Shown: in pieces, positions 1-47,870 of the stretch
How positions within the stretch are numbered: position 1 is the stretch's first letter
Layout of the letters: each line of letters begins with the position of its first letter
Origin: Azolla caroliniana
Taxonomy: Eukaryota; Plantae; Polypodiophyta
Assembly: GCA_043228905.1 (NCBI GenBank)
Contig: JBHGNT010000008.1
Span: 496,001 to 560,000 of the forward strand
DNA length: 64,000 nt
Direction: 5' to 3'
The notes under the pieces: model-generated
Databases searched by the model: none
Told to the model about the DNA's origin: nothing
Seen by the model: the letters and a program-made list of their open reading frames with translations, nothing else
Translations under genes and position numbers: made by a program

Positions 1-1
1 G

Positions 2-13266: not shown

Positions 13267-13284
13267 TGGTGAACTCGACGTGAA
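13267..13284 (+). promoter_or_regulatory. Primer binding site complementary to tRNA-Trp (N1)
   Basis: TGGTGAACTCGACGTGAA, 4 nt after the LTR end; one mismatch to the recalled complement of the plant tRNA-Trp 3' end (TGGTGAACCCGACGTGAA). Confidence 0.8.
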
Positions 13285-13467
13285 AGGCGGCAAGGGAGAA
13301 TGGAGGTGGATGAAGAAGGCTTCGTGGTGAAGGCAATGTTGAAGGCGATGATGAACATACACGGAAGAAGGGTGGACAAGAAACGGTTTGGAAGCCGTTG
13401 AGAGTGCGGTCGAAGAAGTCGACCATTGGTGTGGAGATGGGGTCCCAAAATTTTTAAAGCCCACGAT

Positions 13468-14239
13468 TGTTACCCCCGTAAGAATATACGGGGAGGCATA
13501 AGGGTATGTGTAATGATGTGGTTGATGTGTGTGTGTAAAGTAAATGAGTGTGTGAGGATGAGTATGTGTATGGACACATGCACAATTATGTGCATGTGTA
13601 CAAGAATGTGTAACGGTCTTATTTATAACGGTCATGTAACCGTTACATTGGATGTATTATATAAACCCCCTATGGGGTATGTAATGAGATAACCTTTTTT
13701 CCCTCTCACATTTGTGTCATTTTCAATTTGTCTTTCTCTCTTGTTTTCCCTCACACGTAACCCCTCTTGGGAGGGGGGTGGAGCCATTCTAGGCTTCACC
13801 CTCTACCCATTAATACTTTTGGCACACTCGAATGGCCGACCTCCCTTGAGAAGAGGTCAATCTCTCCCTCCCTCACTCTCCCTCTCCATCACTGATCTCT
13901 ATCTCTCCATTTCTTTGTACGTGTCTGTTAGTGTTTGTGTAGGGTGTATGGTGTGGTGGATGGACTCTTTGTGTGGGAGCCAGCCTGTGATGAAGATATC
14001 AACATTATTCCCTTGAGAAGAAGACTCTCTTCTCCTCCTCTACTTCTTTGCCTACCCCTCTGTTAGTTCTTGTTGCACCATCTCCACTACATCGCCTACA
14101 CATCCCTTTCCCCATTCCCAGTATGTGATGATGATCTTGCTTTCAACCCCTTTCCTCACTCTCTCTACCTAAAATCCTAGCCACCCCAAAGTTCATCTCT
14201 ATATCTTTAGCTCTCTTCATCTTTGTGTTTGCGGCTATG

Positions 14240-14272
<33 letters not shown>

Positions 14273-16517: not shown

Positions 16518-17775
16518 ACGATGCTCGGATTGAGAGGCTTCCCTCACAATGTATGAGAGGCAACGAGGTTAAAGTGTTTGCCGGGTGGTGGTAGCCATAT
16601 GGTGTGAAGAGGACAAAGAGCTTCAAGAAGGTCATGGTTTGGGGTCCTTCGAGGGAGTTATCGAAGATGCACGGGCATGGGTGGTCGAAGAGGCAAATAG
16701 AGGTCGAGAAGGAAGTCTCCTTCTCGACGGATGTAGAATAATGATGACGCCCTGTAGGGGTCTGGGTTCAATACGATGGTGCTATTACGGGGAAGGTGTG
16801 GAACAAGTCACCTATTCAACTTGCGGAGGAATACGCCTCCCTACACGCGGAGGACGGGGCCTATGCGGAGGCCGGAAGAGCATCCGACGGTGACGTGGGA
16901 GAGGGTGCGGAGCAAGCGACCCTCTCGTCTAGCAGAAAGGGGACGACCATGGATGAGGCCGGTGACTACTGAGTGGGAAGAGCCACTTTGAGAGTGGGCA
17001 AAGGATTCGGGGCACGGTTGCTCGAAACATCAAGCGAGAAGGAGGCAAGTGGCCGTGCCGGGACCTTACCCACACCTGTTCTAGAGACTCTGGTGGCCAG
17101 CCCGAGAGCCGGCGTGAGACCTAGAGTCACAAACGGTGGTGGCGGCAAGGCGGGCAACCGAAACAACAAAGAGGAGGATGCGAGGCCTGGAACGGGCATA
17201 TACAAAGGGACTGACGGAGAGGTCGGGAGCAGCAATGAGGAGAGAGTCAGTGAGCGTGAGAAGGAGGCCAAGTGGGCACGACAACTATGGTTCGGTGGAA
17301 GACCGGAAATGAGAGGGATCCTCCACACCTTTTCAAGAGACTACGGCGGTTGCCGATTAACGTAAGACCGGAGAGACAATGGGTGGCGACGAGGAGTCGG
17401 TTACCGAAGCGGGCATCCGGTGTGGGAAGACGGACAAACGAGGCCAAGAGGGCCAAATGGAGTCGGAAGGGACCACGGTGATGAAAGAAAACAAGGCCGA
17501 CTCGGAGGTTGGAACTACGGAGGGAGGAGCGCGTAATACGACGCATGCACTACGGCGAGAAATGAAGCGTGCATTACGGCCGCACGAGGACCTAAGAGCG
17601 AGTGCGTATTAGGAGGTCGACGATGAGTTCGAGAGAAGAACACGGAAGCGGAGGAACAAAGACCGGTCCTATGGGTCACCTCACACCAAGCTAGAGACTT
17701 CGGCGGTCAACATTGGATCCGACGTAAGACCAAGATACTGACGGTGGCGGTAGGAAAATGGGACCCGACAATTCA

Positions 17776-20700: not shown

Positions 20701-23378
20701 GAAGAAGGTGTCGGATTCCGGCATGGAAAGGAACAAGTCAGACCGACGCGAGTCCGACTCCGAGGGAACCACTGACGGGTCTTTAAAGATGAAGACCAAG
20801 ATGGCCTCGACATTGGCTAATGTGAGATTACGCCGATCTACCGGCTAGAAGAATCCTGTTTTGCGGTTCCGATACAATGAGTACATGGCGCATCATTATG
20901 CGTACATGTCCCGTGTAGCGGAAGTGCGTGAGCCGGAGAGCTACGCAGAAGCGGCTAAAGACGCGAATTGGCGTGCCGCGATGGAGGAAGAGATGCACGC
21001 ATTGGTGGAGAACGAGACCTGAGACCTGGTTAACGCACCAAGAGGGGTAAAACCGATCGGGTGTAGGTGGGTGTACAAAGTCAAGTACAACACCGATGGC
21101 TCGGTCAACCGGTACAAGGCTCGGCTAGTGGCAAAGGGCTACGCGCAGAAACACGGCATCGACTACGATGAGACATTTGCGCCGGTCGCGAAAATGATGA
21201 CCGTTTGTGTTTTGCTCGTAGTAGCCTCGGCCAAGGGGTGGCACCTACATCAAATGGATGTAAAGAATGCGTTCCTGCAAGGTGACCTTGAGGAACAAGT
21301 GTACATGGTACAACCCCCCGGATTTCACTCCGGCACGAACTCCTCGGTAGTATGCTGACTGAAGAAGTCCCTTTACGGACTGAAGCAAGCCCCGCGTGCC
21401 TGGAACGCGAAGATCACACAACAACTGCGTCGGATGCGCTTCGTCACGTCAAAATCGGACTCATCCCTGTACATCCGGAAAGGTCGACTTGGACCGGTTA
21501 GTATTCTACTATATGTCGATGACTTGGTCATCACCGGCACCGACCTAGGTGAAATCGACCGCGTGAAGCTCCAGCTTGAGGCATCGTTCGACATGAAGGA
21601 TCTGGGGGACCTTCATTACTTCCTCGGGATCAAAGTGATTCGTACCCCTGAAGGCATATTGATCAGCCAACGTCATAACGTGCTGAGTATGCTCTTCAAA
21701 TTCGGGATGGCCGACTGTAAGTCCGTCTTGACTCCTCTGAACAGAACCGTCAAGCTTCGTCCCGATACGGGAAAGGTATGCGACCTGACGAGGTTCCGAC
21801 AAATTGTCGGAAGCCTCATATACTTGACCATCACCCGACCCGACCTCAGTTATCCGGTCGGAGTGATCAGTCAGTTCATGGCGTGACCTACCGAGGAGCA
21901 CCTTAAGTGTGCGCAACGCGTACTGCGGTACGTAAGTGGCACTAAGGACCGCAGACTGCTATATCGGACCGGTTTAGCCGCGCACTTAGTCGGCGACACC
22001 GATGCTGATTGGGCTGGCCACGCCGCCGATCGCCGATCCACGTCCGGATACGCGTTCTCCCTCGGGAGTGCCGCGATCGCGTGGAGCAATAAGAAGCAGT
22101 CAACAGTTGCACTGTCGAGCACCGAAGCTGAGTACCGAGGAGCGGCTGTCGCGACATGCGAAGCCATCTGGTTGAAGCGGCTACTTAAGGACCTGCAGGT
22201 AGAGGTGTCAGATCCGACGACGATCTACTGCGACAACCTCAGCAACATCCAGCTCGCGAAGAACCCCGTTTTCCACGTACGGACCAAGCACATTGAGGTG
22301 CACTACCATTTCGTTCGTGAGCGTGTCCTTTCCGGTGAAGTCGAACTTCAGTACGTGCCGACGGATCGGCAGACTACCGACATCTTCACAAAGCCTCTTG
22401 GTCTGGACAAGTTGCGGCAATTCTCGGGTGCGCACAGGTTGCGTCACCTTGACGTGCCAAACTTGAGGGGGAGAACAGTCCCAAATGACCAAGCAAGGCA
22501 GTAGGAAAGGAGCAGAGACCGTGACACCGAGTCCGAGTCGGTTGACTCAGTTGTCGAGTTCGACTTCGGATCGGCTGAAGAAACCGAGGGCGAACCCACG
22601 AAAAAGTCTGAAAGCGGACAGAAGGGGAGTAGCCGAAGGAGAGAGCCGAAGCCAACCACGCATGGGGGAGATGACGAAATCAAGGGCGAGAAGACCAAAG
22701 ACGAGTTGGAGACAGTCAATTCGAACAAGAGCGAAAACCGATTGGAAGTAGCCGAGTCGGTTCGAATGTTTGATTCAGACACGTTGAATCAATCGAGGCC
22801 CAAGCGAAAGAAAAGGCAGCACAAGAAGTGTCGACACCGCAACAACAGAAGAGCTGATAAGGGTCACATGAGCAGACAAGCCGACCGTAAGGGTCGAAGC
22901 GCGTAGAGTCGAACAGGTCGAGAAGCGCGAGCGAGGCGTGAAGTCAGGAGGAACCGGAGCTGTGAAGATCCCGAAGAGCCTCAAGTTGAGCTTGAGGGGG
23001 AGTTTTGAGAGACAAGCTCAACATCGGCCGGATCGGCTGAAGAAGCCGAGGACCGGATCGGCTGGGACCAATCGGTTAGGCCGTTAGGAAAGATATTCCG
23101 TGAGGAATATATTTGGGAGTTAGTGTAGGAGCTCTTAATGAGCATTGAAGTACTGACAATACTCCAGTCAGTCCTTCTAGGGCTTGTACAAAGTGTTCAT
23201 TGAGCACATATATGTATTGTTTTCTTTGTCTTTCATAATATACGATCCTTTTGGTGTCTTCTCTCTAACTCTCTCGGTCTCTCCCGCATATACTGTGTAA
23301 GCTCAAGCTCTCCATTAAACCTGAGTGTTCTCCCTTCTGTTCTGTCTTTATACTTGCTTCCGCACGCTACTTTTTACA
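17776..23378 (+). mobile_element. Ty1/Copia element 'K1', full length, decayed
   Basis: 376-bp LTRs 17776-18151 and 23003-23378; TSD ATTCA; PBS TGGTATCAGAGC (tRNA-iMet) at 18152-18163; PPT gagggggag. Gag, protease (WYVDSGASNHM), IN (HSDVWGP, NGVAER), RT (LYVDDL) and RNase H (TKHIEVHYH). Confidence 0.96.
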
Positions 23379-24521
23379 ATTCAGATAGTGACGGACAGAC
23401 CCGGACGAGAACCGGGCGGAGCGGACTTCCGGATAACCGATCTGGAAGGGAGGAAGAGGCAGGCCTACGGGGAGGCCGGAACACGATACATCAGTACGAC
23501 GGGAGAGGGTGTGGAGTGAGCCACCCTCTTGACCTGCGGAGAAGGATGAACCGGGATGGGGTCGGGAAAGGTGAGAGGCCCAAGGAGGATCCTTCACACC
23601 GAGCTAGAGACTTCGGCAGTCAGCCCAAGAGCCGACGTAAGACCAAGAGACTGACGGTGGCAGCGAGGGGACGAGGGCAAACGCAACGACGGTGTGGTCC
23701 TACGACGATCCTCACACTAGTCCGAAGACTCTGGCGGCCGCCCCGAGAGCCGACGTGAGACCTAGAGAGAAGGACAGTGGCGGTAGGTGAACAAGATCTA
23801 GTAGAAGGGTCGAAAAGGAGTAGAAGGGGGTATCAGGCCGGCGACGCGGCCACGAATCGAATATGGGCCCAGTCGTCAGCGTCAGAAGGATGAAGGAGGA
23901 CGCACGCGCATAACACGGGTCAATTACGAAGAAATTTTTGAAATCAGAGAAGGATCCACCACACTTGTACCGGAGACCCTCGACAGCTCAGTCGGGGTGG
24001 CGACGGTTGGTGTGGCAAGCATAAGGCCGAGATGATAAGCAGGGTGGGCGAGGGGACAAAGGCAACAACGGGCGACGACGTCGGACCCAGCCAACATGGC
24101 GCGGAGACGACGGGCCATGCGGGCCAAAGGCCAAGGGTGATCCTTCGTGGGTAGCTACCCGGAAAGCTAGCAAGGACACCCAAGCAGAGAACGATGTGCC
24201 GAGCTAGAAAGGCACACGCGGAGGCGAATCGGAGGGCGTGTGTGTGGCCATCGAGGGCTGACGTAAAGCACGGGTACGGGATGGTGTTCGGCACAGGTGG
24301 TGCCAAACAAGGAAGGCAGAAGATGGCATGTGGTTGCGCGAAGATGAATTGTACGATTCGGTGGTCTCACAAAGAAGGCCGGAGAGGGATCCTCCACACC
24401 GGTTCCGGAGACCTATCGGTAGTTCGGTCGTCGTGGCAATGTAAGACCAAGGAGAAGGAAGGTGGCGGCGAGGGGATAAAGGCAATGAACAACGGCACAG
24501 AACGAGCAATCAGGACAACAC

Positions 24522-25563
24522 TGTCGTGAAGAATTCGTGCCACAGTGAGAAATCACAGAATATTGGAAGGATTGGCAAGGTGCACCATGTGCACCCACCC
24601 TTGTACAAAGTTAGCATAGGGGCTAGGGGTGCCTTTGTGGCGCCGAATAGGCAATAGAGTTGGGACAGAGGATCCCATAATAATGGATTATCCCACATTG
24701 TAACGTTCCCCCCTCCTTGGGCTATAAAAGGAAGGGAGGGGTCTCTTGTATCGGATTGCCCATTTTGGAATTAGGAGGGTATACCACTTAGGTCTAGGGT
24801 TTGGTAGTGTTCTTCCTCTTCATCTTATTCTTGTTCGCTTAGGGCTTCTACTTTGGTCTTTTCACTCTATTTCGTTTTAGGGTTTTACTTTGGTCTTCTT
24901 CATTGTCTTATGGGTTTGATTCCTTCTTCTTGAGTCGAGGATTAGTAGTTCGTCTTGTTCTTCATCTTGTGAGAGATCATGGGAGATTTAGAGTTTCGGG
25001 TTTCTTTATGTGATCTAGGGTTTCTTGGTCGAGTTAGTGTTTTGGTTTGGGGTTTCTACAACAACGGCTCTTCGGCATTCCGGTGGCAGCACTTGGAGGT
25101 TCGGTTTCCTCTCCTCGATGGAGAGTGTTTTGCATGGCAGCGGGTTCGAGAAGGGAGGGCGAAGTGGCACGGGAACACTCCATCGTCTTCGGGGCGTGAC
25201 CAACGATGGACGTTGCGGTCCCGACGGCCCACTTGACTCGCCTTCGTCGGTTCCCATTCTTAACTTGTTGTATTAGCCTATTGATTTGTAGTAGCCACCG
25301 GATTCGGGCATGTAACCATCTTGTTGTAAAACTCTTTTAATATATATTCATGTTAGTGTATATCTATCTTCCTTGTAGCATATTTGAGTCGGGTCCATAA
25401 TCGCGGTGAACCGCCTTTTTGTGAAACCCTACATTCGTTGGAATCGGAAGCCGATTCTGGACCAAAGCCTACAAAGCTTAAGGACTCCACCATCCGTCTC
25501 CCTAGTCCAAGACCCCTGGAGTCCCGCCTAAGATCCTAAACGTACCCGCGGAATACCGCGACA
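24522..25563 (+). mobile_element. Solo LTR of the N1 family
   Basis: TGTCGTGAAG..CCGCGACA, colinear with the N1 LTRs. Flanks ACAC/ACGT are compatible with a decayed 4-bp TSD. Confidence 0.82.
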
Positions 25564-26235
25564 ACGTGAAGATCAACAGAGGCCAAGCGGGCCACTACGG
25601 GTGTCTTGCGGATGGAGGGAGCATACGGTGGGATGCAGAGCGTGAATATGGTCGAACAAAGGGGCAATGGAGGAGCATGCGCGAGAGAGGAGATTGCGGC
25701 GAACGACCTATCGACAGGTCGAATGAGCCTATGAAGAGGCAAGCGCGTAGACGAAACCGGAGCTGATGATTTGGGACCGGCCAAGGCCAACACGGCAACC
25801 GGAATGAGGATTACGGAAGACCGGTTGCTTACTACGGTCGGAATCTCTCACACTTCTTCGGATTTGGCACGTACCGGTGGACGTGCGTGCGGTTTGGTGA
25901 GGGTGGATGTTGTGAAGATCCATGGCCATAGTGAGAAAACCGGAGAAGTTACTGACATTGGCGAAGTGCATCATATGCACTTACGCTTGCATAAACGTGT
26001 GAATAATAGGGGTGCCTTTATGGTGCCGAATAGGAGTTAAGTTGGAACAGAGAACCCCATGTAATAAGGGATTTATCCCACATTGTTACACATCCCTCTC
26101 CTTGTTCTATAAAAGGAAGAGAGTGTCCCTTGTAAAAGGGTTGCCCATTTTGAGTTAGAAAGGCTATACCACTTAGGTCTAGGGTTTGGTAGTTTTCTTG
26201 GTCTTCATCTTATTCTTATTCCCCTAGGGTTTGTA

Positions 26236-26679
26236 CTTTGGTCTTTTCATCCTATTTCATTTTAGGATTTCATTTTAGTCTTCTTCATTGTCTCGTGGTT
26301 TGGTTCATTCTTTCAAGTGGACGTTAGTATTCCGTCTAGGTTCTTCTTCTTGTGAGAGTTCTTCCGAGTTAGGGTTTATGCGGTTTAGGGATTCGGGTGT
26401 TTCTCTCTTCTTCGTGTGAGAGTTTGATTTGGTTTGGGGGTTCCTACAACGATGGCTTTGGTCTTTTCATCCTATTTCATTTTAGGGTTTCATTTTAGTC
26501 TTCTTCATTGTCTCGTGGTTTGGTTCATTCTTTCAAGTGGACGTTAGTATTCCGTCTAGGTTCTTCTTCTTGTGAGAGTTCTTCCGAGTTAGGGTTTATG
26601 CGGTTTAGGGATTCGGGTGTTTCTCTCTTCTTCGTGTGAGAGTTTGATTTGGTTTGGGGGTTCCTACAACGACGGCTTT
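26236..26679 (+). repeat. 220-bp tandem duplication within the N1 3' LTR
   Basis: CTTTGGTCTTTTCATCC at 26236 and 26456; CTTT again at 26676. Confidence 0.93.
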
Positions 26680-26779
26680 AGGCATTCTGGTGGCAGTACT
26701 TGGTGATTTGGCTTCCTCTCCTCGATGGAGAGCGTTTCGTGTGGCGGCCGGTTCGAGAAGGGAGGGCGAAGATGCACAG

Positions 26780-28921
26780 TGTCATGTGGTTTTTCACACA
26801 CGATATGAAAACTAGTAAAACAATTATTTAAGATTAGCTTAATGTATTCATATAGATAAATGTCGTGTGTTTTTTCACACACGATATGAAAACTAGTAAA
26901 ACAATTATTTAAGATTAGCTTAATGTATTTATACAGATAGATGTCTTCAAAAGCTTCATAGCGTATTTTACTATGCATGAAACGGATAAACAAGTATCAA
27001 GTAATGTGAGTGTGAAGTTTGAATAAGAAGAAAGAAAAGACAAAACTATGAGATATCCCTCATAGATAGGACAACATTGGAACCCAAGATATATAAGGGA
27101 AACCAAGACATTGAAACCAAAACATTGGAACCCAAGATATATAAGATATATTCTATCAATTTGTGGAGCACAGAATGTTCAAGGTGACTTGGGCTACATT
27201 GTGTGGTGTGCACGGTTGCGCGGATGTTTCGGACGGACACGTGTGTGCGGACGAGCGTGCGGATGCATATGCATACACAACGCGGTTGCTTCGGGCGTAC
27301 GCACGTGTGCACGGTTGCGCGGACGTTTCGGATGGACGTGTGTGTGCAGACAAGCACATGGATGCGTACACGGTGCGGTCGAGACGCGCGCATGCGTGGC
27401 TGTGTACACTGCGGCGAGGTCGAGGCTTTTGCGTGCAGACGCGTTGACGTTTCAAATGGACGCGTGTGTGCAGACGAGTGCGCGGATGCGCACACGGCGC
27501 GATCGTGACGTGCACATGCGTGGATGCGTACACTACACGGTTGGGACTTTTGCACGCGGACGCGTCTACGGTTTGGTTGCGACGCACGTTGTCGTGCCTT
27601 TCGGCTCCGGATCGTTGCGTGAGTCGGGTGGGAACCGCCGAGGTTTTTGACTAGGAGGAAGAGGAATACAACTTAAGGCTAGTTATGAATAGTGGAAAGA
27701 GAAGTAAGATAGCAATCTCGTGAATCCCACGAGTTTAGTGTATTTAAAACAATATTTAGATTATAAGAGTAATTTAGATGGCAAAATTCGTGAATCCCAC
27801 GAATATATTAGATTGATCAGTCCTTGTATATTAATCAACAACCTTATACATATTTCTCTCCTCCTTATATAAAGATGGAAGAGGCTAAGCATGGCTTCAT
27901 GCTTTTTCACCAAAAGTGTCCATGCACACTAAATGTGCATGTGATGCTTTGTCATTTCCTAAGTATAGGGCTCATGCACGCTAGATGTGCATGAGTCACT
28001 TTTAATGTCACGTGTAAATAAAATATTCACACCCTAAAGAATACATGATTTTTACCTTTTAATAAAGGTATGTGTAAATAAAGGTCTTATATGTATTAAA
28101 TCTATATGTATAACACTAAAGATAAGTTATTACAATGGTAAAGTTGGGGTTTATCTACGTGGAGGTGCAGGGTTCGAATCTTGCCTTATGCACGTGATAA
28201 ATGTTTTGATATATTATTTATTTATTTATATGTATCTAAAATCGATAAATTATTTTATGGTTTTCACGTAGTGTGTGGAATACGCTACGACAACGTACGG
28301 ATTGTGCACGGGCTAAACTTTATGGATGATTGGGTCATTTGGCCAAATTATACAGACGGTCGCATGCAACTAAAAGCCAAGGCCATGCAACTAAAAGTAA
28401 AAGGCATGCAACTAAAAATGGAAGCATGCAACTAAAAATAGAGGTCATGCAACTAAAAGTGGACATGCAAAGTAACATTGGGGAGGAGGATTAACAAGGA
28501 GCTGGATATGTGTTCCATTTTTTTCCCTCTACTTTTTTTTTCTCTTCCTTCTTCTTCTTCTCTCTCCCATTACCTGGGGGGAAAATTATCTCTCAGATTG
28601 ATATCAAACTCTTGGTTTAGCTTGCTCAATCTTTCTTGTCAAAAATTATCTCTCATATTCATATTGGACCACTCCTTACATGGTTGTTGGCTCCTTTCTT
28701 TAAAAAAATTTATCTCTCATTTTCATCTCCAACCCGTTGTAACAAGATTCTTGAATTATAAAAGAATCTATTTTCTTATGCTATAAACGAACGTTTTCTC
28801 TCATTTACTTGACTTATATGTGAATTTTGCTTGTGTTGTACATGTTGCACTAAATCCTTCTAGTCCAGAACCCCGGCGGTTCTGCCTGGCGATCCGCACA
28901 TAGTGACGGATTTTCATGACA
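26780..28921 (+). mobile_element. 2.1-kb solo-LTR-like insertion related to the G3 LTRs
   Basis: TGTCATG..CATGACA perfect 7-bp inverted ends; flanks ACAG/ACGG. Shares the 5' block and gacggtcgcatgcaactaaa repeats with the G3 LTR; GC-rich degenerate repeat at 27200-27600. Confidence 0.82.
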
Positions 28922-29581
28922 ACGGGGAACACTCCATCATCTTTGGGGCGTGACCAACGGTGGACGTCGTGGTCTCGGCAACCCACTTGACTCGAAGCCC
29001 ACAAAGCTTAAGAACTCCACCATCCGTCTCCCTAGTCCATGACCCCTACGGTCCCACCTAAGATCCTACACGTACCCACGGAAAACCGCGACAATGCGTA
29101 CAACAACTCGAAGCAACCATCGTAGCGTTACAACAACAGGGATCAAGTCCCCAAGGACTTCATAAAGAGCCCAAGATTGGTCTTCCTGTGAAATTCGATG
29201 GAACGCGCTCACAATTCCGAGGAATCCTTAATCAAGTATGCTTAGTCATGCAAATGCATCCTTCTTGATACCCCATTGATGCATCCCGAGTAAGCCTAAT
29301 AGGCACGTTGCTCAACGGCTCAACCTTGGCATGGTTTGCTCCGCTTTTGGAAAAACAATCTCCCTCGGTTAATAACTTTGAAGACTTTATTAGCGAGTTT
29401 AAAGCCTGCTTTGGAGATACCGACAGCATTTGGACGACAATTAACAAAATCTGACGATTGTGTGAAGGCGATCGTCCAGTCTCTGCCTACACGACGGATT
29501 TCCATCTACTCGCCTCAGATATCCCCTGGGATGATCAAGCACTAATGGAACAGTTGTGCTACGGCCTGCTAAACGACGTCA

Positions 29582-36422: not shown

Positions 36423-39400
36423 ACTATTAAAAAGGAATCCTTAGTTCAACTTCCCGCGAAATATCATCCTTATGCTGATGTATTTGACAAGGTCAAAGAT
36501 GGTACTCTTCCTCATCATCGTCCCTATGATTGTCCTATCGATTTACAACCAGAAACAGAGCCAGCGTGGGGACCGATTTACAACTGTTCACCAACTGATT
36601 TACAACTGTTCATCTTCAGGCCTACATAGAAAAAATTTGGCAAACGGGTTTATTCGTCATTCGAAATCTCCAGCCGGTGCACCCATTTTCTTTGTCAAAA
36701 AGAAAGATGGATCCCTTCATCTTGTCGTTGATTACCGCAGCTTGAATAAGGTCACCATTCAAAATAGGTATGCACTTCCCCTTATATCAAGTCTATTAGA
36801 ACGTGTAAATGGTGCCATGTTTTTTACAAAAATTGACTTACGAGGAGCATATAACCTCGTGCGGATCTGATCGGGAGATGAATGGAAGACCGCTTTTTGC
36901 ACCCAATATGGGCACTTCGAGTATACCGTTATGTCGTTCGGTCTAATCAATGCACTCACAGTCTTCCAGCACATGACAAATGATATATTCAGAGATTTCT
37001 TGGATATCTGTTTGATCATCTATCTGGATGATCTATTGATTTATTCGAAGACCTAGGAAGAGCATGATTCTCATGTACTATTAGTACTAAAACGACTCCA
37101 AGAGCATGGTCTTTATGCCAAACTAGAAAAATGTAGCTTTGACTGCAAGCATGTGGAATTTCTAGGCTACGTCATCTCCTAAAAAGGCATCTCCATGGAT
37201 CCAACTAAAGTCCAAACTGTGCTAGAGTGGCAAACTCCACGTTCGTTACGAGATGTGCAATGTTTCCTAGGCTTTGCCAACTTCTACCGCAAGTTTATAC
37301 AAGATTACTCGAAGATTATTTTTCCTCTCACATAGCTTACCAAGAAGGGACAGTCATTTCTTTGGTCCAATGACGCGGACATGGCTTTTATGCATCTTAA
37401 GAAAGCCTTTACATCAGCTCCTATTCTAGCTCATGTGGATACAAACAAACCATTCTTCATGGAGGCCAACGCATCAGATTTCGCCCTCGGTAGCATCCTT
37501 TCACAACAAGGAGATAGAGAAAAGTTACATCCTATGGCTTTCCAATCACGCAAATTTGATGTTGCGGAAATTAACTACGAGATACATGACAAGGAGTTAT
37601 TAGCCATTGTGGATTCGTTTGTGCAATGGCGGCACTTCGTAGAGGGCTCTTCTCATCAAGTCATCTTCTTCAGTGATCACAAAAATCTTGCTTACTTCCA
37701 AAACCCTCGTGTACTAAATCAACGGCAAGCTCAATGGGCCCAATTCCTCACGCGTTTTGACTTCAAAATCACATATCGGCGAGGAATCAACAAGGAAAAG
37801 CAGATGCACTATCGCGACATTCATATCTTGCACCTCGTCCGGGTGATCCAACATTTGATAATCAAAAGCAGGTAATCTTGGGACCAACACGTTTGCACAC
37901 AACACGGATTTTTCACACTCCACTAGATTCCCGGATTATCGATGCCATATGTGCCAACTTGAAGACAGATAGTTTTGCTCAAGCCATTCTAGCGAAAATT
38001 GATGCCTCTCAAGCATCCTGTTCCCAGTCTCAACAACCAGGTATGGACTACCGACAATTCAAATATCATGATGGTTTATTATTCTTTAAAAAGCTCGTGT
38101 ATGTTCCCGATTGCTCCTGTCACCTTCAAATCGTCCAAAATTGTCATGACACCCATACAGTTGGACATTTCGGCAGTACTAAGACGTTGGATCTAGTTCG
38201 ACAATCCTTTTGGTGGCCCCATATGCGACGTTTTGTCGACGACTATGTTCGGACCTATGATGCTTGTGGCCGAGCAAAGATGCCACGACATAATCCATAT
38301 GGCTTGTTGGAATCCTTACCAATTCCAAGTAAGTCGTGGCTGTCCATTGGTCTTGATTTTATCACAGATCTTCCAATCTCGAAGGGTTTCGATGCTATCT
38401 TAACCGTCATCAATCAATATACTAAGATGGCACATTTTGTGCCTTGTACTAAGGCCATCACTAGTGAGGAAACCACAACCTTTCTGATGTGTGAGGTATT
38501 TCGGCATCATGGCTTCCCAAACAGTATCATCAGTGACCGAGGACCTCAATTCATCTCTAAATTTTGGAAGCATCTCTTCAAGATGCTCAAGGTCTCTTGC
38601 AACCTCTCCTCCGGCTACCATCCCCAAACTGATGGGCAAGCAGAACGAATGAATCAAACGCTGGAACAATATCTTCAGTGTTTTCTGAGTTATCCATAGG
38701 ACGATTGGGTTGATATTCTCCACTTTCGGAGTTTGCTTATAACAACGCTATTCACTCCTCGACTCAGGTCTCGCCATTCTACACTTATACCGGTTCTCAT
38801 TCTCGTTGGTTTGTGATTGACACTCCATAGCTACCTACCAATTCTCGTGTCGAGGATCATCAAGAGAGGCTACGCAAGATTCAGATGGATCTATCTATTC
38901 ATCTTCATCATGCTCAACACACTCAGAGGCTTCCCTCCTCTTTTGCCATCAGAGATCGAGTATGGATCTTACATCGTCACATCAAGACAACTCGACCTTT
39001 GCAACAAATTGGATTATTGACAACTCAGTCCTTTCCATATTACTGGCAAGATTAATGATGTCACATTCCGCCTTGATCTTCCTCTGCACCTTCAGATACA
39101 TCCAGTCTTCCATAGTTCTCTTCTCGAACCTTATCAAACCAACACTATTCCCGATCGTGTTACACCACCACTGCCCTGGAGTATGAAGTTGTTGTCATCC
39201 TCGACTCCAAGTTTGTTCGCAACGAACTTTATTATTTGATCGATTGGCTTCGACTATAGTCCGAGCGAACATACTTGGGAACCCGTCGAGCATGTTGCCA
39301 ATGCTCAAGATCTTCGAACAAACCCGGTGTCGTGTGAATCTTCACACACTATGTAAAAAATAATGAAATAATTATTATAGATTAGATTAGTAGCTTACTA

Positions 39401-39644
39401 TAGAAAGATGGATATACTCAAGAGCTTCAAAATGTATTTTACTGTATACAAAATGGAGAAATACATATCAAGTTATGTGAAAATAAAGTTTGAGAAGATA
39501 GAGAAATTAGAACTATCCCACATAGATAGGAAACTTAAGGCCCTGGCTATATAACCACCTTGAGCTCCCTCATTTTTCATTTGTTCTAAGAGCAGTTTGG
39601 CCACTTTGTCTTGATGGATGATGGTGGCCAAATTCCCTAAATCC

Positions 39645-39888
39645 AGAAACCGACCGGTAAACAAATTCGGAACCGGAACCGGCAAGCAAAACCGGAACCG
39701 GAATCGGTATGCAAACCGGAAACAAGCAAAACTGGAACCGGAACCGGTATGCAAACCGGAAACCGGCCGGTAAGCAAAACCGGAACCGGACCTGGCATGC
39801 AAACCGGAACCGGCCGGCAAACAAAACCGGAACTGGAACCGGCAAGCAAACCGGAACCGGTCGGCAAGCAAAATGGAACCGGCCGGCG
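39645..39888. repeat. AACCGG/CAAACCGG-rich minisatellite in the G3 5' LTR
   Basis: Degenerate accggaaccggcaagcaaa units. Confidence 0.9.
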
Positions 39889-40585
39889 AGGGATTCGGTG
39901 ATCGGGCGGAACCGGCGACCGTACGAGGTTGGACGCAAATCGAACGGATAAAAGGATCATGTGGCTATTTAAAGAAAGGTAAAAGAGACTAAAGTAAAGG
40001 TCAAGTGGACGGTCGCATGCAACTAAAGAAAAAGCCATGCAACTAAAAATAGATTTAACGAAAAGAAAAGTTATGCAACTAAAAGTAGAGGCCATGCAAC
40101 AAAAAGTGGAGGCATATGATCAACGAGGAACTCCATATATAATTCCATTTATTTATTTTTTCCTAGACTCATATGCTCTCTCCATATTATATTGTTCTTC
40201 TTTTCCTTCGGAGCTCTCTTATCTTATCGAAGCCAAGAACCCTAAATTTCCTTACGGAAGTCATAAACCCTAATTTCCTAATCAAAGCCATATAACTCAA
40301 AAACCCTAATTTTCGAATTGAAGCTAAAAACCCTAATATTCTAATTAAATCCATATTTCATTTCTTCTAGTCTATTACTCTAGTCATCTCCATTAGCAAA
40401 TTTTTGTAATCCCAATCTTGGGATTAATTGTAATCTTTCTTTCCCTTTATTAATGAAATTTGTGAATCTTTCTCATTTTGTATTAATTGCTTAATATAAT
40501 CATACGAATCTGATATCTTCCGGTCGGAGGCCCCGGGGTCCTACCTCAAAGTTCACATATCCTCGTCCTATTTCTACGACATCTT

Positions 40586-40603
40586 TGGTGAACCCGACAT
40601 GAA
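40586..40603 (+). promoter_or_regulatory. Primer binding site complementary to tRNA-Trp (G3)
   Basis: TGGTGAACCCGACATGAA after a TCTT spacer. Confidence 0.82.
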
Positions 40604-40634
40604 ATGACGCAGTAGGAGGATATCAAGTACGAAG

Positions 40635-42414
40635 ATGGCTTCGACAAGTCGAACTCAAGGAGAAGAATTGACGAAAGGCATGGTGTCCGTCGTCGAATTC
40701 ATGCTGAAAGACAGAGATCGGGAGGCTTTAGTCGACAAAGCTGTTGACCGAACTGTGGAGACAATTGGAAGATTCGGTGGGAAGAACATCACAAATTTCC
40801 TTGCTACCTACCGGAACGAGATGCAACAAAGAGATGTCCATGATCTAAAACAAATTTCAAGCTTTAATCGTGTGGTAGAACCCGGGATCCGTGAGCGCGT
40901 GATGGAGATCCAAAACGAGCATGCAACTTGGGTGGAGTTCAAAAGGGCTCTTCTCACTGAATACATGCTTGAAGACGCATCGCGGATGACTCGACATACG
41001 TTAATGAATTGGATCGAGAAGAAAGGGAAGAATCTGTGTGCATCGGGAATTTATGTCGAATTCGACCAGAAGTACAACCGACTTCCGAGTGTCGAGCAAC
41101 GAGTTCTCGATGGAGATAAAGTCTTACTATTCCTAAAGGCAATGGATGCGAAAGATCGGCGAGAATTGGGCAGTTTCTTGGAGGACGAAACACAACCAAA
41201 TGGCTTGGTAGCGGACTAGACGGCGGTGAAGAAGGCTTGCAGCCGTTTTGATAAGCGGCGACAATGGCAAGAGGAAGCTGAGGTCGAGAATCCACAATTG
41301 TGGAAGAAGGCACCTACGACGATTGAGCCTAGTAAGCCGATCAACAATTTCGACAACAAAGCAATGGAGGAGTCTATAATCGAAGAGCTCTCCGGAGGAT
41401 CTAAAACTTGCTGACCAAAACGTGCGACGAGCAACCGGATGGTCAGATCCAATCGACGAAAACACAAGCTTTGCGGAGGTTGTGTGTGACACCTATGAAG
41501 CCCTTGTCGAAGAGAAGAGGAAGAGAATCGGTGAAGAAGATGGCACATCAAAGCGACCTAACACGAGGAACGGAGGGAAAGAAGGGCCACCCCAACCTAT
41601 CCCAAGAAAAGAGATTGGTGAGACAAACATGAAGCCCAGCCCGGTGGATCGAGCCAACCTGCTCGGATGGAAGTCGAAGAATCAACGAAGAAAGGAAAAG
41701 AACGAGCAGCACCGACTTACAAGCTAAGCTCGGACATAGAACAAACAACTAACTTGCGGAAGGTCCTTGAGGAGAAGGGTTTAGATAGTCATGTCGACCT
41801 TACCTTGAGAGAGCTACTTGGGATCGCAAAGAAGGAGTTCCATGATACTATCGTGGACCTTATTAAAAGGAAGCGGCAACAATCTGATGAAGAGGAGGTG
41901 AAAACAAGTGCCATAACCATGGCAAGATCGGAAGAGGAGGAAGAAGAAGAAGTGGTGGCGGATAGCCATTACTCACGGCCTCATTGGGCAAGAGTGACAA
42001 CGGAGACACCTGTGAAGATCGGGGAGAAGAAAGAGACCGTGGTCGCTTTGATTGACCATGGCTCAGAGATCAACCTCATGTCGACCAAGTTCTACAAGAA
42101 AGGAAGATGGTCGTTTAATACAAACCATGGAGGCTACGGAGGACTTGTACGGAGCTTGCCCCAACGTTAAAGTCACGATCGGGGATGTAGAGATTGATCA
42201 ACACTTCTTCGTGCAAGACTCGGCTTCACATCCCGTCATCCTAGGACAACCATATATAACATCGTCCCGGATGGAGACCAAGGTGTTCGATAATGGAGCA
42301 GCCTTCGTGCGCGTCAAGAGTCTTGATAGTAAAAGATCCGTTCAATTCCTGACGGTGCGAGCTAATCATGAAAGGAACCGAGATAGCCTTGGAGGCGAAT
42401 CCTCGGATTTTTAA
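40635..42414 (+). pseudogene. G3 gag-protease ORF (disrupted)
   Basis: ORFs 40635-41219, 41422-41727, 41667-42170 (DHGSEINL) and 42052-42414, ending SDF-stop. Confidence 0.88.
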
Positions 42415-45400
42415 ACCGGACTATTGAAGCATGGGGCACAAATAGTCCGAGCAATCATAAGTCCCCACAAGGAAGCAAAGTGTGTGGATTGCAAGGAGAA
42501 GCAACAGGCGTCACACCTGGCGGCGCATGCAAACTTAGACTACTCAACAAGAAGGAAAAGTGTTAGATACAAGACTTCGAGGAGGTGCTGAAAGAAGAAA
42601 GCATAATCGAAGAAGAAGAATTCGTGTCATATATTCTGGAGGAAGCCTCATTTAACGACACCATCGGCGAAATCGAGGAAGTCGTGGATTTGAGCTATCG
42701 TCACCCTCAACATGTGATTTCGGTTAACTCCGTCAACATGTATACTATCATCGATGAATATCATTGAGGCATCTTGATAGAGGAAGCCGAAGTCAACACA
42801 AAATATAAAACCGTGAACAGGAAGATCAAGCCAGTTGCAGTTCCGCTACCGGAAGATAGTTGGCAAAAGATGAAGGAAGTTGCAAAAGATCCAAGCTTAA
42901 GGAACCCAAATACAATTGGTCACATCTTCACTAAAGAGAAGAAGGGAAAGCTACAAGTTGGAAGGGAGGATTTCCTCCTCCCTGAAGAGGAGCGGATGTT
43001 TCGTGGAAGGCTTGAAAGACATGGGAAGGCTTTCGCGTTTTTCCCAAAAGAAATTGGGTGTGCTAATCCAAGGACGGTAGAACCGATGGTGAAGGAAGAT
43101 AGTTGGCAAAAGATGAAGGAAGTTGCAAAAGATCCAAGCTTAAGGAACCCAAATACAATTGGTCACATCTTCACTGAAGAGAAGAAGGGAAAGGAACAAG
43201 TTGGAAGGGAGGATTTCCTCCTCCCTGAAGAGGAGCGGATGTTTCGTGGAATGTTTGAAAGACATGGGAAGGCTTTCGCGTTTTTCCCAAAAGAAATCGG
43301 GTGTGCTAATCCAAGGACGGTAGAACCGATGGTGATCTTCACGGTGCCGCATGTGCCTTGGAATTTGAAACCGATACCGGTTCCGAGAGCACACTTACCG
43401 AAGTTGATCAAGCTCTTAAAGGAGAAGGTGAGGATGGGAATTCTAGAACCGTCGAAGGCTCCTTATTCTAATAGGTGGTTCACGGTGCCAAAGAAGAATG
43501 GATCGTTGCGATTCATTCAAGATCTTCAACCCGTCAACAAGGTGACAATTCGGAATGTTGGAATCGGTCCGAGAGTGGATGAATTTGCCGAGGCGTTTGC
43601 GGGCCGGTCCATCTACTCCATCGGCGATCTCTACTCTGGCTACGATCAATTCCAGTTGGCGGTCGACAGTCGTGACATTACAACCATGAGAACTCCAATC
43701 GGGTTGGTGCGGATGTGTACCTTACCTCAAGGTGCAACGAACTCGGTGGCTCATATGGTGAATGCCATGAACAAGGTCTTGAAGGATTGCATCCCGGATA
43801 TCATGATGCCATTCTTAGATGATATTTCGATAAAAGGATGTTCGGATGAAGAGAAGGATGAATCAAAAGATAAGGATGGATGTAGAAAGTTCTTCATGGA
43901 TCATATGAAAGATTGCGAGAAGGTGCTCCAAAGGCTCGAAGATGCGAATTTGACATTTTCGAGAGAAAAATCCACATTCAGGCAACCGGAGATCCTGGTG
44001 GTAGGTCACTTGTGTGGAGCATACAGTCGGAAGCCTTCGCCATCCAAGGTGAATGCAATCCAAGACATGAAAGAAGAATGTGTAACCCAAACGGAGGTTC
44101 AAAGGTTCCTTGGAGCATGCGCGTTTTATCATATTTGGATTCCACACTACGCCCACATTGCTGAGCCATTATATGGTCTACTAAAGAAGAAGCGGATGTT
44201 CGAATGGACGAGCGAGCATACAATCGCCATCCGAAGGCTGAAGAAATTATTGATGGAGGCACCTGCATTACGGAAAGCGGACTATTCATACGGCAAGCCC
44301 ATTTTCGTGACTGTGGATACTAGTCCAATCGGAATTGGATGGGTTATCAACCAAGAAGATGAAGATTGCAACCGATATGCAATTCGGTTTGGCGCGAAAG
44401 TGTTAAGTGACAGGCAAAGAAGGTATGCCCAAGTGAAGAGGGAACTATGGGGGATCGTCTCGGCAATCAAATCTGATCGTGATTACCTTATTGGAGCAGA
44501 AGTCAAAATTGAGACCGATTGCCTACCAATTTTGGGTATGATATATGGTTGTAATACACCGGATATTGCCATGTTGCGTTGGATTGCATATATCAAATCA
44601 CTCAACCCGGAGATCCGTCATGTAGCTGGGAAGCGTAATGTCGTTGCAGACATGCTATCACGAGCGAGATACGACGGAGAAGAAGATCGACATTCTGATG
44701 AAGATGATGTTGGCTTGGATTTCTTTGCAAGTTCCTATGCTCGGGTGTTGACTACTTTCATAGAAGAGGACTACGAAGGCGAATTCGTGGAGATCAGGAA
44801 ATACTTGAGTTCTCTCCAAAAAAATGAATCATGGTCGAGGGAAGGCTTCCATCGAATTCGGAAGAAGGCATACAAGTATTTCCTTAAGGATGGAGCTCTT
44901 TGGAGGCATGCAAAAAAGAAGAATGGGACTCCGATGAGAGTTGTCTGCAAGCTAGAAGACCAACAAAAACTAATGTCTGAATTTCATGATAGTGTTTTTG
45001 CAGGCCATCGAGGAATATGGGCTACGTTTGCGAAGCTTAAGGAGAAATATTGGTGGCCGGGCATCTACAAAGATGTAGCAGCTTATGTGGAAACATGTAA
45101 GGAATGTCAAATGTTTTCGAATATTCGCCATCGAGATGGACTTCATCCGACTTACCCATTGGCTATGCATTACAAGTGGATGGTGGACATAGTGATGATG
45201 CCAATGGGATGAGGGCAGATGAAGTATCTTGTGCTCGCGAGAGAGGATCTTGCCAATCAAGTTGAAGGGCGAGCATTAAGAACTAAGGAGACATCATCGG
45301 TATGCCGATTCCTTCTTGAAGATGTTATTTGCAGATATGGATGCGTCGGCAAGATAGTGGCTAATAGAGGCGAGTTGGACGCCAATGAAGCTAGAGAATT

Positions 45401-46103
45401 CTTCTCGAGGATGGGAATCAAATTATCTCTTACCATGGCGTATAATCCGAAAGCAAATGGGAAGGTGGAACATGGACATGGACCGATTGTGAAGGCTCTA
45501 GTGAAAGCTTGCCATGGGAAAATAGGAGAATGGCCGTGTCTATTGCCATTTGCACTATGGGCTGACAGGACTACTCATAGCACGGTGACGGGATACATGC
45601 CGGCAGAGCTCATATTCGGACAAAAGCCAATAATGCATGTAGAACAAAGTATTATTTCATGGTTTGCATTGCCATGGCAAGATGAGATAAGTAGAGAAGA
45701 TCTTCTAGCATTGAGGATTTGACAATTAGAGCAGAATTTGGAAGATATAGAGGCGGTTAAAGCGCGGCTAAAGAATGCAAGGCTAAAGAACAAGAAAGAC
45801 TTCGATAAACGACATCGACTTCGGCCGAGGAAAATCGTTGAAGGAGATTGGGTGCTAGTCTATGACAGTAGCCTAGATAACCAACATGGTACAGCTCGAA
45901 AATTCTCACAACGATGGTTTGGGCCATATGTGGTGAAGAAAGTGGAAGATAATGCAACATATCATTTAGTAGAACTAGATGGTACACCACTTGCCTTGCC
46001 AATTGCCGGTAAAAGAATCAAGATCTTCAAGAGAAGAGATAGAATAGAAATTGGATTCGAAGCTTTTGACGATTCAGTCTTAAGCATTGATGAAAAAGTA
46101 TAG
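42405..46103 (+). pseudogene. G3 pol (RT-RNaseH-IN), in the -1 frame relative to gag-protease; few stops
   Basis: ORFs 42585-42767, 42774-45212 (812 aa), 45219-45722 and 45738-46103, all in one frame. 243-bp in-frame duplication at 42851-43336. Confidence 0.92.
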
Positions 46104-46485
46104 TAAACAAAAATGAATCCTCACCAAAATTGGCACATACCGGTGGATGTGCAGGTTTGGTGGGGGCGAATGTCGTGTGAATCTTCACACACTATGTAAA
46201 AAAATAATGAAATAATTATTATAGATTAGATTAGTAGCTTACTATAGAAAGATGGATATACTCAAGAGCTTCAAAATGTATTTTACTATATACAAAATGG
46301 AGAAATACATATCAAGTTATGTGAAAATAAAGTTTGAGACGATAGAGAAATTAGAACTATCTCACATAGATAGGAAACTTAAGGCCCTGGCTATATAACC
46401 ACCTTGAGCTCCCTCATTTTTCATTTGTTCTAAGAGCACTTTGACCACTTTGTCTTGATGGATGATGGTGGCCAAATTCCCTAAA

Positions 46486-46830
46486 TCCGGAAACCGGCTG
46501 GTAAACAAATTCGGAAACCGGCCGGTATGCAAACCGGAAACCGGCCAGTATGCAAAACCGGAACCGGAACCGGCAAGCAAAACCGGAACCGGAACTGGCA
46601 AGCAAACCGGAATTGGCTGGCAAGCAAAACCGGAACCGACCGGTAAGGAAAACCGGAACCGGAACCGGCCGGTAAGCAAAACCGGAACCGGAATCGGTAT
46701 GCAAACCGGAAACCGGCCGGTAAGCAAAACCGGAACCGGAACCGGTATGCAAACTGGAAATCGGTCGGTAAGCAAAACCGGAACTGGACCCGGCAAGCAA
46801 ACCGGAACCAGAACCGAAACCGGCCGGCGA
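46486..46830. repeat. Longer version of the AACCGG minisatellite in the G3 3' LTR
   Basis: Same units, about 100 bp longer than in the 5' LTR. Confidence 0.9.
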
Positions 46831-47870
46831 GGGATTCGGCGATCGGGCGGAACCGGCGACCGTACGACGTTGGACGCAAATCGAACGGATAAAAGGATCA
46901 TGTGGCTATTTAAAGAAAGGTAAAAGAGACTAAAGTAAAGGTCAAGTGGACGGTCGCATGCAACTAAAGAAAAAGCCATGCAACTAAAAATAGATTCAAC
47001 GAAAAGAAAAGTTATGCAACTAAAAGTAGAGGCCATGCAACAAAAAGTGGAGGCATATGATCAACGAGGAACTCCATATATAATTCCATTTATTTATTTT
47101 TTCCTAGACTCATATGCTCTCTCCATATTATATTGTTCTTCTTTTCCTTCGGAGCTCTCTTATCTTATCGAAGCCAAGAACCCTAAATTTCCTTACGGAA
47201 GTCATAAACCCTAATTTCCTAATCAAAGCCATATAACTCAAAAACCCTAATTTTCGAATTGAAGCTAAAAACCCTAATATTCTAATTAAATCCATATTTC
47301 ATTTCTTCTAGTCTATTACTCTAGTCATCTCCATTAGCAAATTTTTGTAATCCCAATCTTGGGATTAATTGTAATCTTTCTTTCCCTTTATTAATGAAAT
47401 TTATGAATCTTTCTCATTTTGTATTAATTGCTTAATATAATCATACGAATCTGATATCTTCCGGTCGGAGGCCCCGGGGTCCTGCCTCAAAGTTCACGTA
47501 TCCTCGTCGTATTTCCGCAACACCGGTCCACAATCAGCGCCGACTCGTGACACTTGTCGTCTTAAGGGGGGGATAGTGTCATGATATGGCAGGACTTGAA
47601 CCCATAGCCTTATGTTATATGGGTCGATCTCTTGACCATTACATTATCTATTGTAATACGTAAGATGTTATTTTTCATTTAAGTTTTACAACAGAAAATT
47701 ATTGTGTATTCCAGATTTCTCTGAAACATTCTAGAAGCTTCAGGACTATTCCTGAGAACACTATAAAAAGAGGCACAAGGCATTATTTCGAACCAAATTG
47801 GTTCAACGCCAGTCTTAAGCCTCATAGCTATTTTGTACTTACTCTTCACATAATATATTGTCTATTATCA

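What the first reader, a model, noticed from the sequence alone, without database searches (positions are those of the whole stretch)
39328..47522. Gypsy lineage with a tRNA-Trp primer, 4-bp TSDs, FLDD RT and its own non-autonomous partners
Seen: G3 and N1 have a PBS matching tRNA-Trp after a TCTT spacer. TSDs are 4 bp (CCGG for G3, ATGC for N1); in both cases removing the element and one 4-bp copy restores the host reading frame. The solo LTRs fit decayed 4-bp TSDs. Ends are TGTCG..CGACA-like, the RT has PQGATNSV/PFLDD, and no chromodomain is visible. Six insertions here belong to this group (G1, G2, G3, N1, two solo LTRs). Known: typical plant LTR elements, including the Copia and chromovirus copies here, make 5-bp TSDs and mostly prime with tRNA-iMet. 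Inference: a distinct, poorly characterised lineage. It may fall within basal non-chromovirus clades described from non-seed plants (Phygy/Selgy) or sit closer to algal/fungal elements; I cannot determine which.
Basis: partly seen in the sequence, partly recalled or inferred. Interest (0 to 1): 0.78.

Follow-up and report, generated by a model that had tools for sequence, protein, structure and literature searches.

The report
Phygy retrotransposons with pseudoknot frameshift signal
These jumping genes likely belong to Phygy, a group already described from moss with the same primer, target duplication and size, so they are not a new lineage; the new details are a conserved RNA signal predicted to shift the ribosome between the protease and polymerase genes, and partner elements that keep only a capsid-derived gene.

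Summary
G3 (39328-47522, 8.2 kb) has a 4-bp TSD (CCGG), a PBS matching plant tRNA-Trp, no chromodomain and no added RNase H. N1's 4-bp TSD is confirmed by empty-site joints.

The lineage is likely not new. REXdb lists Phygy as 4-bp NCGN TSD, tRNA-Trp, 7.7-10 kb, no extra domain. Five of six insertions here, and 12 of 16 LTR flanks in relatives, show NCGN. G1 and G3 group with liverwort and fern proteins. No named Phygy sequence could be obtained, so membership rests on traits.

Two details were not found in the papers searched. (1) Gag-protease ends at G_GAU_UUU plus a stop, Pol lies in the -1 frame (31 of 32 relatives), and a covarying pseudoknot starts 5-6 nt downstream: a predicted programmed frameshift between protease and RT. 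REXdb leaves Phygy's organisation undetermined. Two sister contigs have Pol in the -2/+1 frame instead. (2) N1 is a decayed copy of a pol-less family whose 659-1518-aa ORF joins a capsid-derived domain to a long repetitive tail.

Verdict: known lineage, useful new detail.

The parts
39328..47522 (+). G3, full-length dead element (8195 bp) inserted at the chromodomain end of a Tcn1-type host
39324..39327 (+). left TSD CCGG (right copy 47523-47526), fits NCGN
39328..40581 (+). G3 5' LTR, TGTCG...CGACA, with an internal ACCGGA-type tandem array
40586..40603 (+). G3 PBS, 17/18 complementary to the tRNA-Trp(CCA) 3' end, after a TCTT spacer
40635..42414 (+). Gag-protease region (broken by frameshifts and stops), ending ...D-F-stop
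42405..42467 (+). predicted -1 frameshift signal: G_GAU_UUU 42405-42411, stop, stem 1 (42417-42425 with 42441-42449), stem 2 (42432-42436 with 42463-42467)
42411..46103 (+). RT-RH-IN region in the -1 frame; no chromodomain or added RNase H found; premature stops; 243-bp tandem duplication at 42851-43335
46151..46170 (+). polypurine tract
   Evidence: same motif before 3' LTRs of relatives
46171..47522 (+). G3 3' LTR
1..4820 (+). G1, 5'-truncated by the window; frameshift motif at 421; 3' LTR 4173-4820; right flank GCGG, which is gag sequence of G2
4821..9492 (+). G2 (part in window): gag/PR interrupted by a ~0.7-kb insert, motif at 6435, internal deletion of the RT N-terminal half, 3' LTR 8794-9492, right flank CCGT in a Tcn1 integrase
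12808..29093 (+). N1, decayed pol-less partner (about 2.95 kb of own internal DNA) carrying four nested insertions; TSD ATGC/ATGC in a Tcn1 gag
13267..13284 (+). N1 PBS, 17/18 to tRNA-Trp
16823..17735 (+). N1 remnants of the partner family's long ORF (37-66% aa identity to intact relatives)
24522..25563 (+). S1, solo LTR of N1's LTR family, flanks ACAC/ACGT
26780..28921 (+). S2, solo LTR related to G3 and L081 LTRs, inside N1's 3' LTR, flanks ACAG/ACGG

Best explanation
G1, G2 and G3 are dead copies of Ty3/Gypsy LTR retrotransposons that likely belong to the described Phygy lineage: they carry a tRNA-Trp primer site and 4-bp CG-centred target duplications, and are predicted to make RT and integrase by a pseudoknot-stimulated -1 ribosomal frameshift placed after the protease; N1 is a decayed pol-less relative that likely borrowed those enzymes. 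Shown: anatomy, PBS complementarity to tRNA-Trp, NCGN bias, -1 overlap of the two ORFs with an in-frame G_GAU_UUU, covarying stems, absence of pol in N1, and homology of the partner ORF's N-terminus to the Gag capsid region. Inferred: actual priming, integrase reading the CG, the frameshift itself (most ribosomes would stop and give Gag-PR, a minority would give Gag-PR-RT-RH-IN), co-packaging of partner RNA by autonomous particles, and any role for the partner protein (it keeps capsid but lacks the zinc knuckle, so it would co-assemble rather than package RNA itself).
For: Phygy row of REXdb matches on TSD length, NCGN, primer, size and lack of extra domain (text). Phygy nested in Tcn1 is the commonest repeated nesting in P. 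patens, as here. PBS: 35 of 46 metagenome loci with at least 2 kb upstream, 31 exact. NCGN: 12 of 16 plausible LTR flanks in relatives against a CG background of 3.7-9.0%. Tree: G1 and G3 sit among Riccia and Adiantum proteins, far from the Tcn1 host. Frameshift: Pol in -1 in 31 of 32 loci with both ORFs long; GGATTTT directly before the stop in 28, GGATTTC in 2. Structure on 29 sequences: 82.2% of cells paired vs 76.8 +/- 0.8 shuffled and 36-46% slid; 10 of 14 pairs with two-sided changes vs 4.8 +/- 1.4. GGAUUUU is a tested -1 site in pea enation mosaic virus. Partner: L098 holds PBS, a 1051-codon ORF (0 stops vs 23 and 26 in the other sense frames; longest in 500 shuffles 384), PPT and LTR, no pol; 8 further protein clusters; 30% identity over 240 aa to Gag, whose region models as a two-lobed retroviral-type capsid.
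Against: No named Phygy sequence was compared (REXdb FASTA too large), and REXdb defined Phygy as a P. patens clade while this host is unknown. The tree is a quick search with SH-aLRT only and the plant groups form an open fork. The metagenome loci are collapsed repeat contigs, many near-duplicates from one series, so the counts overstate independence. Stem 2 is mostly G-run/C-run: own pairing scores 15.8 vs 14.2 across families, clearly specific in only some. 11 of 46 loci showed no PBS (some too short or rearranged), 2 of 16 flanks were not NCGN even allowing CpG decay, and N1's own TSD is ATGC. The partner ORF's tail shows no third-position excess of substitutions (0.229/0.205/0.217, p = 0.73), so amino-acid selection there is not shown; the protein search only admits long ORFs. 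No expression or frameshift data.
Confidence: 0.85

Rival explanations
1. An unnamed sister lineage of Phygy that shares its traits by descent, centred on ferns and liverworts.
For: No moss-named protein among the hits; G1/G3 form their own 22-row group (SH-aLRT 97) of unnamed sequences; REXdb sampled one moss.
Against: All five tabulated Phygy traits match, including NCGN, which REXdb calls unique to Phygy; a liverwort genome paper already reports Phygy.
Confidence: 0.1
2. TatI (4-bp TSD, tRNA-Trp) or Selgy (4-bp TSD).
For: TatI shares TSD length, primer and roughly size; Selgy shares TSD length and has no extra domain.
Against: TatI always has an added RNase H between protease and RT; no such Pfam hit in the full Pol and Gag ORFs of L081 or in P0124 and L098. 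Selgy uses tRNA-Ala and is 4.4-6.7 kb.
Confidence: 0.03
3. Pol is made from a spliced or re-initiated RNA (as in Ogre), and the stem-loop serves packaging or dimerisation rather than frameshifting.
For: Ogre uses an intron at the same PR/RT boundary; two contigs are not in the -1 frame; stem 2 could pair between molecules.
Against: The ORFs overlap rather than being separated; the heptamer is in the Gag frame, directly before the stop, with the stem 5-6 nt away in most of 29 sequences, the textbook spacing; a 32%-identity relative has GGGAAAC-stop with Pol in -1 at the same place.
Confidence: 0.08
4. The partner's long ORF is not functional: a T-poor, repeat-expanded derivative of gag that stays open for RNA reasons (for example avoiding nonsense-mediated decay) or because copies are young.
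For: No third-position bias; T is only 12% of the strand; the L098 ORF runs through the PPT into the LTR; L098 lacks the capsid N-lobe.
Against: Open frame far beyond shuffles; 9 diverged sequences (49-75% identity to L098) keep the frame through large insertions; three keep the whole capsid region.
Confidence: 0.35

Closest known systems
Phygy (non-chromovirus Ty3/gypsy clade, REXdb; Neumann et al. 2019, PMC6317226; read: abstract, sections 8 and 13, passages, supplement MOESM5)
   Same: 4-bp TSD, NCGN target, tRNA-Trp PBS, 7.7-10 kb, no extra domain or extra ORF; nests into Tcn1 (Jedlicka et al. 2019, PMC6911290, passages).
   Different: Defined from P. patens only; polyprotein organisation listed as not determined; pol-less elements were filtered out. 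Here: Gag-PR / -1 / RT-RH-IN layout and capsid-only partners, in an unidentified seed-free plant.
-1 frameshift sites of plant RNA viruses and retroviruses (PEMV G_GAU_UUU, PMC4737148, passages; review PMC5009743, passages)
   Same: Same heptamer as PEMV, stop next to it, 5-6-nt spacer, 3' structure.
   Different: Predicted pseudoknot rather than a long hairpin with distant pairing. The shift lies after the protease, as recalled for alpharetroviruses (from memory, not tested). The review says the plant elements then known with separate frames had pol in +1.
TR-GAG non-autonomous elements (Chaparro et al. 2015, PMC4350172; abstract and passages)
   Same: LTR, PBS, single Gag-derived ORF, PPT, LTR; no pol.
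   Different: TR-GAG: under 4 kb, 5-bp TSD, ORF about 430 aa with a zinc knuckle. Here: about 5 kb, 4-bp TSD, 659-1518-aa ORF with no knuckle and a long acidic/Gly-rich repeat tail.
TatI and Selgy (REXdb)
   Same: 4-bp TSD; TatI also tRNA-Trp.
   Different: TatI has an added RNase H; Selgy uses tRNA-Ala, is shorter, and its overlap lies before the protease.

Membership tests
Phygy | RT/RH/INT cluster with P. patens Phygy elements (the primary criterion) | not testable with these tools
   REXdb sequence files too large to read; no moss-named hit. Tree places G1/G3 with Riccia and Adiantum proteins.
Phygy | 4-bp TSD | tested here: met
   G3 CCGG/CCGG, N1 ATGC/ATGC with empty-site joints, S1 and S2 decayed.
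Phygy | NCGN target preference | tested here: met
   5 of 6 window insertions have an exact NCGN flank; N1's site is ACGN in sister host copies; 12 of 16 flanks in relatives.
Phygy | PBS for tRNA-Trp | tested here: met
   17/18 in G3 and N1, 18/18 in 31 relatives, against seed-plant nuclear tRNA-Trp(CCA). The host's own tRNA set was not available.
Phygy | Length 7656-9968 bp, coding region filling the interior | tested here: met
   G3 is 8195 bp; 5.6-kb interior is gag-pol.
Phygy | No chromodomain, no added RNase H, no extra ORF | tested here: met
   Pfam scans of G3 pieces and intact relatives; about 40 aa follow the integrase C-terminal motif.
TatI | Added archaeal-type RNase H between protease and RT | tested here: not met
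   No such Pfam hit in the whole Pol and Gag ORFs of L081 or in L098 and P0124.
Selgy | tRNA-Ala PBS, 4.4-6.7 kb | tested here: not met
   tRNA-Trp PBS, 8.2 kb.
TR-GAG (for N1) | LTR, PBS, PPT, Gag-derived ORF, no PR/RT/RH/IN | tested here: met
   L098 partner and N1.
TR-GAG (for N1) | Under 4 kb, 5-bp TSD | tested here: not met
   About 3 kb interior plus two LTRs of 0.7-1 kb; 4-bp TSD.
Programmed -1 frameshift signal | In-frame slippery heptamer, 5-9-nt spacer, 3' structure, overlapping -1 ORF | tested here: met
Programmed -1 frameshift signal | Measured transframe product | not testable with these tools
   needs a reporter or proteomics

The most novel reading that the evidence does not exclude
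Phygy and its relatives across liverworts, ferns and probably mosses control RT/integrase dose by a pseudoknot-driven -1 frameshift after the protease, undescribed for plant retrotransposons; one sub-branch has switched to a -2 shift by changing the site to G_GUU_UUU and moving the stem one base closer; and the lineage is parasitised by capsid-only partners whose capsid-plus-disordered-tail protein co-assembles into, or poisons, the autonomous particles.
Probability: 0.4. Interest if true: 0.6.

Novelty: new member of a known kind. Interest (0 to 1): 0.36.

Why it matters
The headline claim (a new lineage) dissolves into Phygy, so the finding as written is ordinary. What remains useful: it fills the 'not determined' cell for how Phygy expresses its polyprotein with a testable recoding signal; it supplies a natural pair (-1 versus candidate -2) for the known effect of spacer length on shift direction; it extends Phygy-type elements across liverwort and fern genomes; and it describes a class of capsid-only partners that domain-based annotation discards. 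The CG-centred target means these elements land on potential methylation sites, which fits their piling into older transposons (inference).

Tried and rejected
No whole genome is held, so no genome-wide TSD table or host tRNA set. tRNA-Trp gene search by pattern: 80 viral-contig matches with no tRNA called, none in viral or genome contigs with a longer pattern; one paper's supplement had no hit. P. patens RLG2 transcript cell is cut at 400 characters and RLG2/RLG3 could not be tied to Phygy. Cluster look-ups gave almost no organism names: 30 proteins asked, species names only for two pseudoscorpion and one basidiomycete protein. Atlas searches gave generic RT clusters and only a sub-0.9 PUB-domain lead for the host exon, so the host was not identified; runs are coded and no RNA holder was listed. 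Laying contigs on G3's 5' LTR did not list junction flanks usable for a target logo. No relatives in viral contigs; three stray contigs in prokaryote assemblies, taken as contamination. Rfam: no family in the window. Sequence searches of the Gag N-terminal alignment found nothing in PDB or Pfam; Foldseek had no hit under E 0.001 though its top rows were capsids. Codon-position test for selection on the partner tail was negative. Rejected: 5-bp TSD; TCTT as a lineage marker; G3 as N1's direct partner; TatI; Selgy. Tree: 12 of 106 rows left out (G2's RH-only piece, 8 redundant outgroup-like rows, 3 gapped Riccia models). Flank count: PPT-preceded starts, three starts inside pol (L106, L124, L160) and one internal chance match (L098) were dropped. 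Structure test used 26 of 52 loci, chosen by me as about one per family, without L111, L119, L127, L132, L158.
Full report
Observation. The window is a pile of nested LTR elements from an unidentified seed-free plant (no genome held). G3 spans 39328-47522 with LTRs 39328-40581 and 46171-47522 that differ at 15 of 1018 sites outside their tandem array. It is flanked by CCGG on both sides and sits at the chromodomain end of a Tcn1-type element. Its flanks match the sister Tcn1 copy's K-P-G-P-Q-S with one 4-mer counted once, but the host has a net 25-bp deletion just upstream, so the frame is restored only locally. N1 spans 12808-29093 with ATGC on both sides; there the host gag frame does continue, and contigs from four runs bridge the empty site, one joint with exactly 4 letters fitting either side and sister copies reading A-CGT, A-CGG or A-CAG. 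S1 (ACAC/ACGT) and S2 (ACAG/ACGG) fit CpG-decayed 4-mers; G1 and G2 have right flanks GCGG and CCGT. The two Copia copies and one small LTR element checked have 5-bp duplications.

Primer. G3 and N1 each match 17 of the last 18 bases of plant nuclear tRNA-Trp(CCA), read in the supplement of PMC13128298 (two passages). Among 80 metagenome loci found by Pol similarity alone, 46 had at least 2 kb upstream; 35 carry the PBS 2.1-2.6 kb before Pol, 31 as the exact 18-mer, after ...ACA and a 1-6-nt spacer that is TCTT in only 8. These contigs are collapsed repeats and partly near-duplicates.

Identity. REXdb's table (PMC6317226, supplement MOESM5) gives Phygy: 186 elements, 4-bp TSD 100% with NCGN, 7656-9968 bp, tRNA-Trp 81%, no extra domain, organisation ND; its text calls NCGN the only target preference seen (section 13). 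G3 meets each trait. In relatives, 12 of 16 plausible LTR flanks are NCGN, two more are one CpG change away, two are not; CG background is 3.7-9.0%. PMC6911290 (passages) reports Phygy nested in Tcn1 as the commonest repeated pair in P. patens, and PMC12885004 (passages) reports Phygy in a liverwort. TatI is excluded by the lack of an added RNase H, Selgy by primer and size. Named homologues are Riccia and Adiantum gene models at 55-72% over RT-RH. A quick IQ-TREE search on 94 rows puts G1 and G3 in a 22-row unnamed group within an open fork shared with the Riccia and Adiantum groups; a basidiomycete protein (36%) lies in the wider clade and the Tcn1 host far outside. The decisive comparison with P. 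patens Phygy sequences could not be made, so membership is likely, not proven. Earlier notes of this scan call the host a likely fern and one names Phygy for other DNA of this genome; I did not confirm the host.

How Pol is likely made. In 32 loci with both ORFs long, the first ORF (Gag plus protease) overlaps the second (RT-RH-IN), which is in the -1 frame in 31; GGATTTT stands directly before the stop in 28 and GGATTTC in 2. All three window copies keep the motif (421, 6435, 42405). On 29 aligned junctions a 9-bp stem starts 5-6 nt after the heptamer in most, and its loop can pair 9-23 nt further on. The named two-stem structure gave 82.2% paired cells (shuffles 76.8 +/- 0.8, slid controls 36-46%) and two-sided changes at 10 of 14 pairs (shuffles 4.8 +/- 1.4); relatedness can inflate the shuffle test. 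Stem 1 alone folds with z between -3.2 and -5.5 in five of six sequences, not in G1. Stem 2 beats shuffles (15.8 vs 11.3 +/- 0.5) but only slightly beats cross-family pairing (14.2), being specific in divergent members such as L129 and L140. G_GAU_UUU is a tested -1 site in pea enation mosaic virus (PMC4737148, passages). A 32%-identity relative has GGGAAAC-stop with Pol in -1 at the same boundary, so the layout is likely old. Two sister contigs, L119 and L127, have Pol in the -2/+1 frame, the site AG_GUU_UUU and the stem one base closer; the review PMC5009743 (passages) notes that shorter spacers raise -2 shifting, and that plant elements known in 2003 with separate frames had pol in +1. REXdb does list overlapping ORFs before the protease for Tcn1 and Selgy, so frameshifting in plant elements as such is implied. 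Searches listed no paper describing this signal for Phygy; I saw listings only for most of them, and subscription papers and newer REXdb releases were not covered.

The partner. N1's own interior (2951 bp) has no pol remnant. It matches an intact element in L098: PBS, a 1051-codon ORF, PPT, LTR, right flank ACGT. The ORF has no stops where the other sense frames have 23 and 26, and shuffles reach at most 384 codons. Eight more clusters of 659-1518 aa were found; three keep a full N-terminal region 30% identical over 240 aa to autonomous Gag, which models confidently (pLDDT 88) and matches Arc, retrotransposon and retroviral capsids in the top 27 rows, best Z 9.5, modest for a helical domain. 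None has a zinc knuckle; the rest is an acidic, glycine-rich tail grown by in-frame repeats. N1 matches these proteins at 37-66% in the tail and only weakly at the N-terminus. Substitutions against L098 show no third-position excess (p = 0.73), so a protein role for the tail is not shown. It works like TR-GAG (PMC4350172, abstract and passages) but fails its size and TSD limits. N1's LTR resembles G1/G2 at the U5 end, not G3.

Verdict. Real features, likely a known lineage (Phygy, about 0.85). The frameshift signal is likely real (about 0.9) and was not found in print; the capsid-only partner is a variant of a known kind. Interest 0.36.

Noticed in passing
L119:2820-2900 and L127:2480-2560: Sister contigs with Pol in the -2/+1 frame, site AG_GUU_UUU and stem 1 one base closer to it: a candidate natural switch from -1 to -2 frameshifting. 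Two contigs only; a homopolymer assembly error is not excluded.
   Followed up: partly
window 40586-40603 and 13267-13284: The reverse complement of the lineage PBS is the most abundant 18-nt 'miR894' read in Cryptomeria (PMC5846777 Table 3) and equals the tRNA-Trp 3' end. 'miR894' is thus likely a tRNA-Trp 3' fragment able to pair with this PBS; that paper's text has no mention of Trp.
   Followed up: partly
L098:977-11300: An autonomous element is followed directly, through one shared LTR, by the pol-less partner: a real tandem or a collapsed assembly.
   Followed up: no
L163:344-5590: Stray contig in a bacterial assembly holding a distant relative (32%) with GGGAAAC-stop after the protease and Pol in -1; L161 is a closer stray copy with the GGATTTT signal.
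   Followed up: partly
window 13468-16517: 3-kb LTR element with 346-bp LTRs, 5-bp TSD ACGAT and no coding domain seen, nested in N1's ORF: another non-autonomous family.
   Followed up: no
window 42851-43335, 1614-2043, 26236-26679, 29582-30071: Four tandem duplications of 210-250 bp in different elements, 92-99% identical: local repair events or an assembly feature.
   Followed up: no
window about 51000-55500 (minus strand): Intron-rich host gene; one exon gives only weak PUB/PAW-domain leads, suggestive of a peptide:N-glycanase-like protein; a Copia copy lies at 55601-60591.
   Followed up: partly
window 5416-6103: About 0.7-kb insert interrupting G2's protease region, apparently a reverse-strand solo LTR.
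   Followed up: no
Gag of G3 (41622-42167) and relatives: Pfam DUF4100 hits the region before the protease in this clade and in the basidiomycete relative; I recall this family as built from Physcomitrella proteins, which would fit Phygy, but did not verify it.
   Followed up: no
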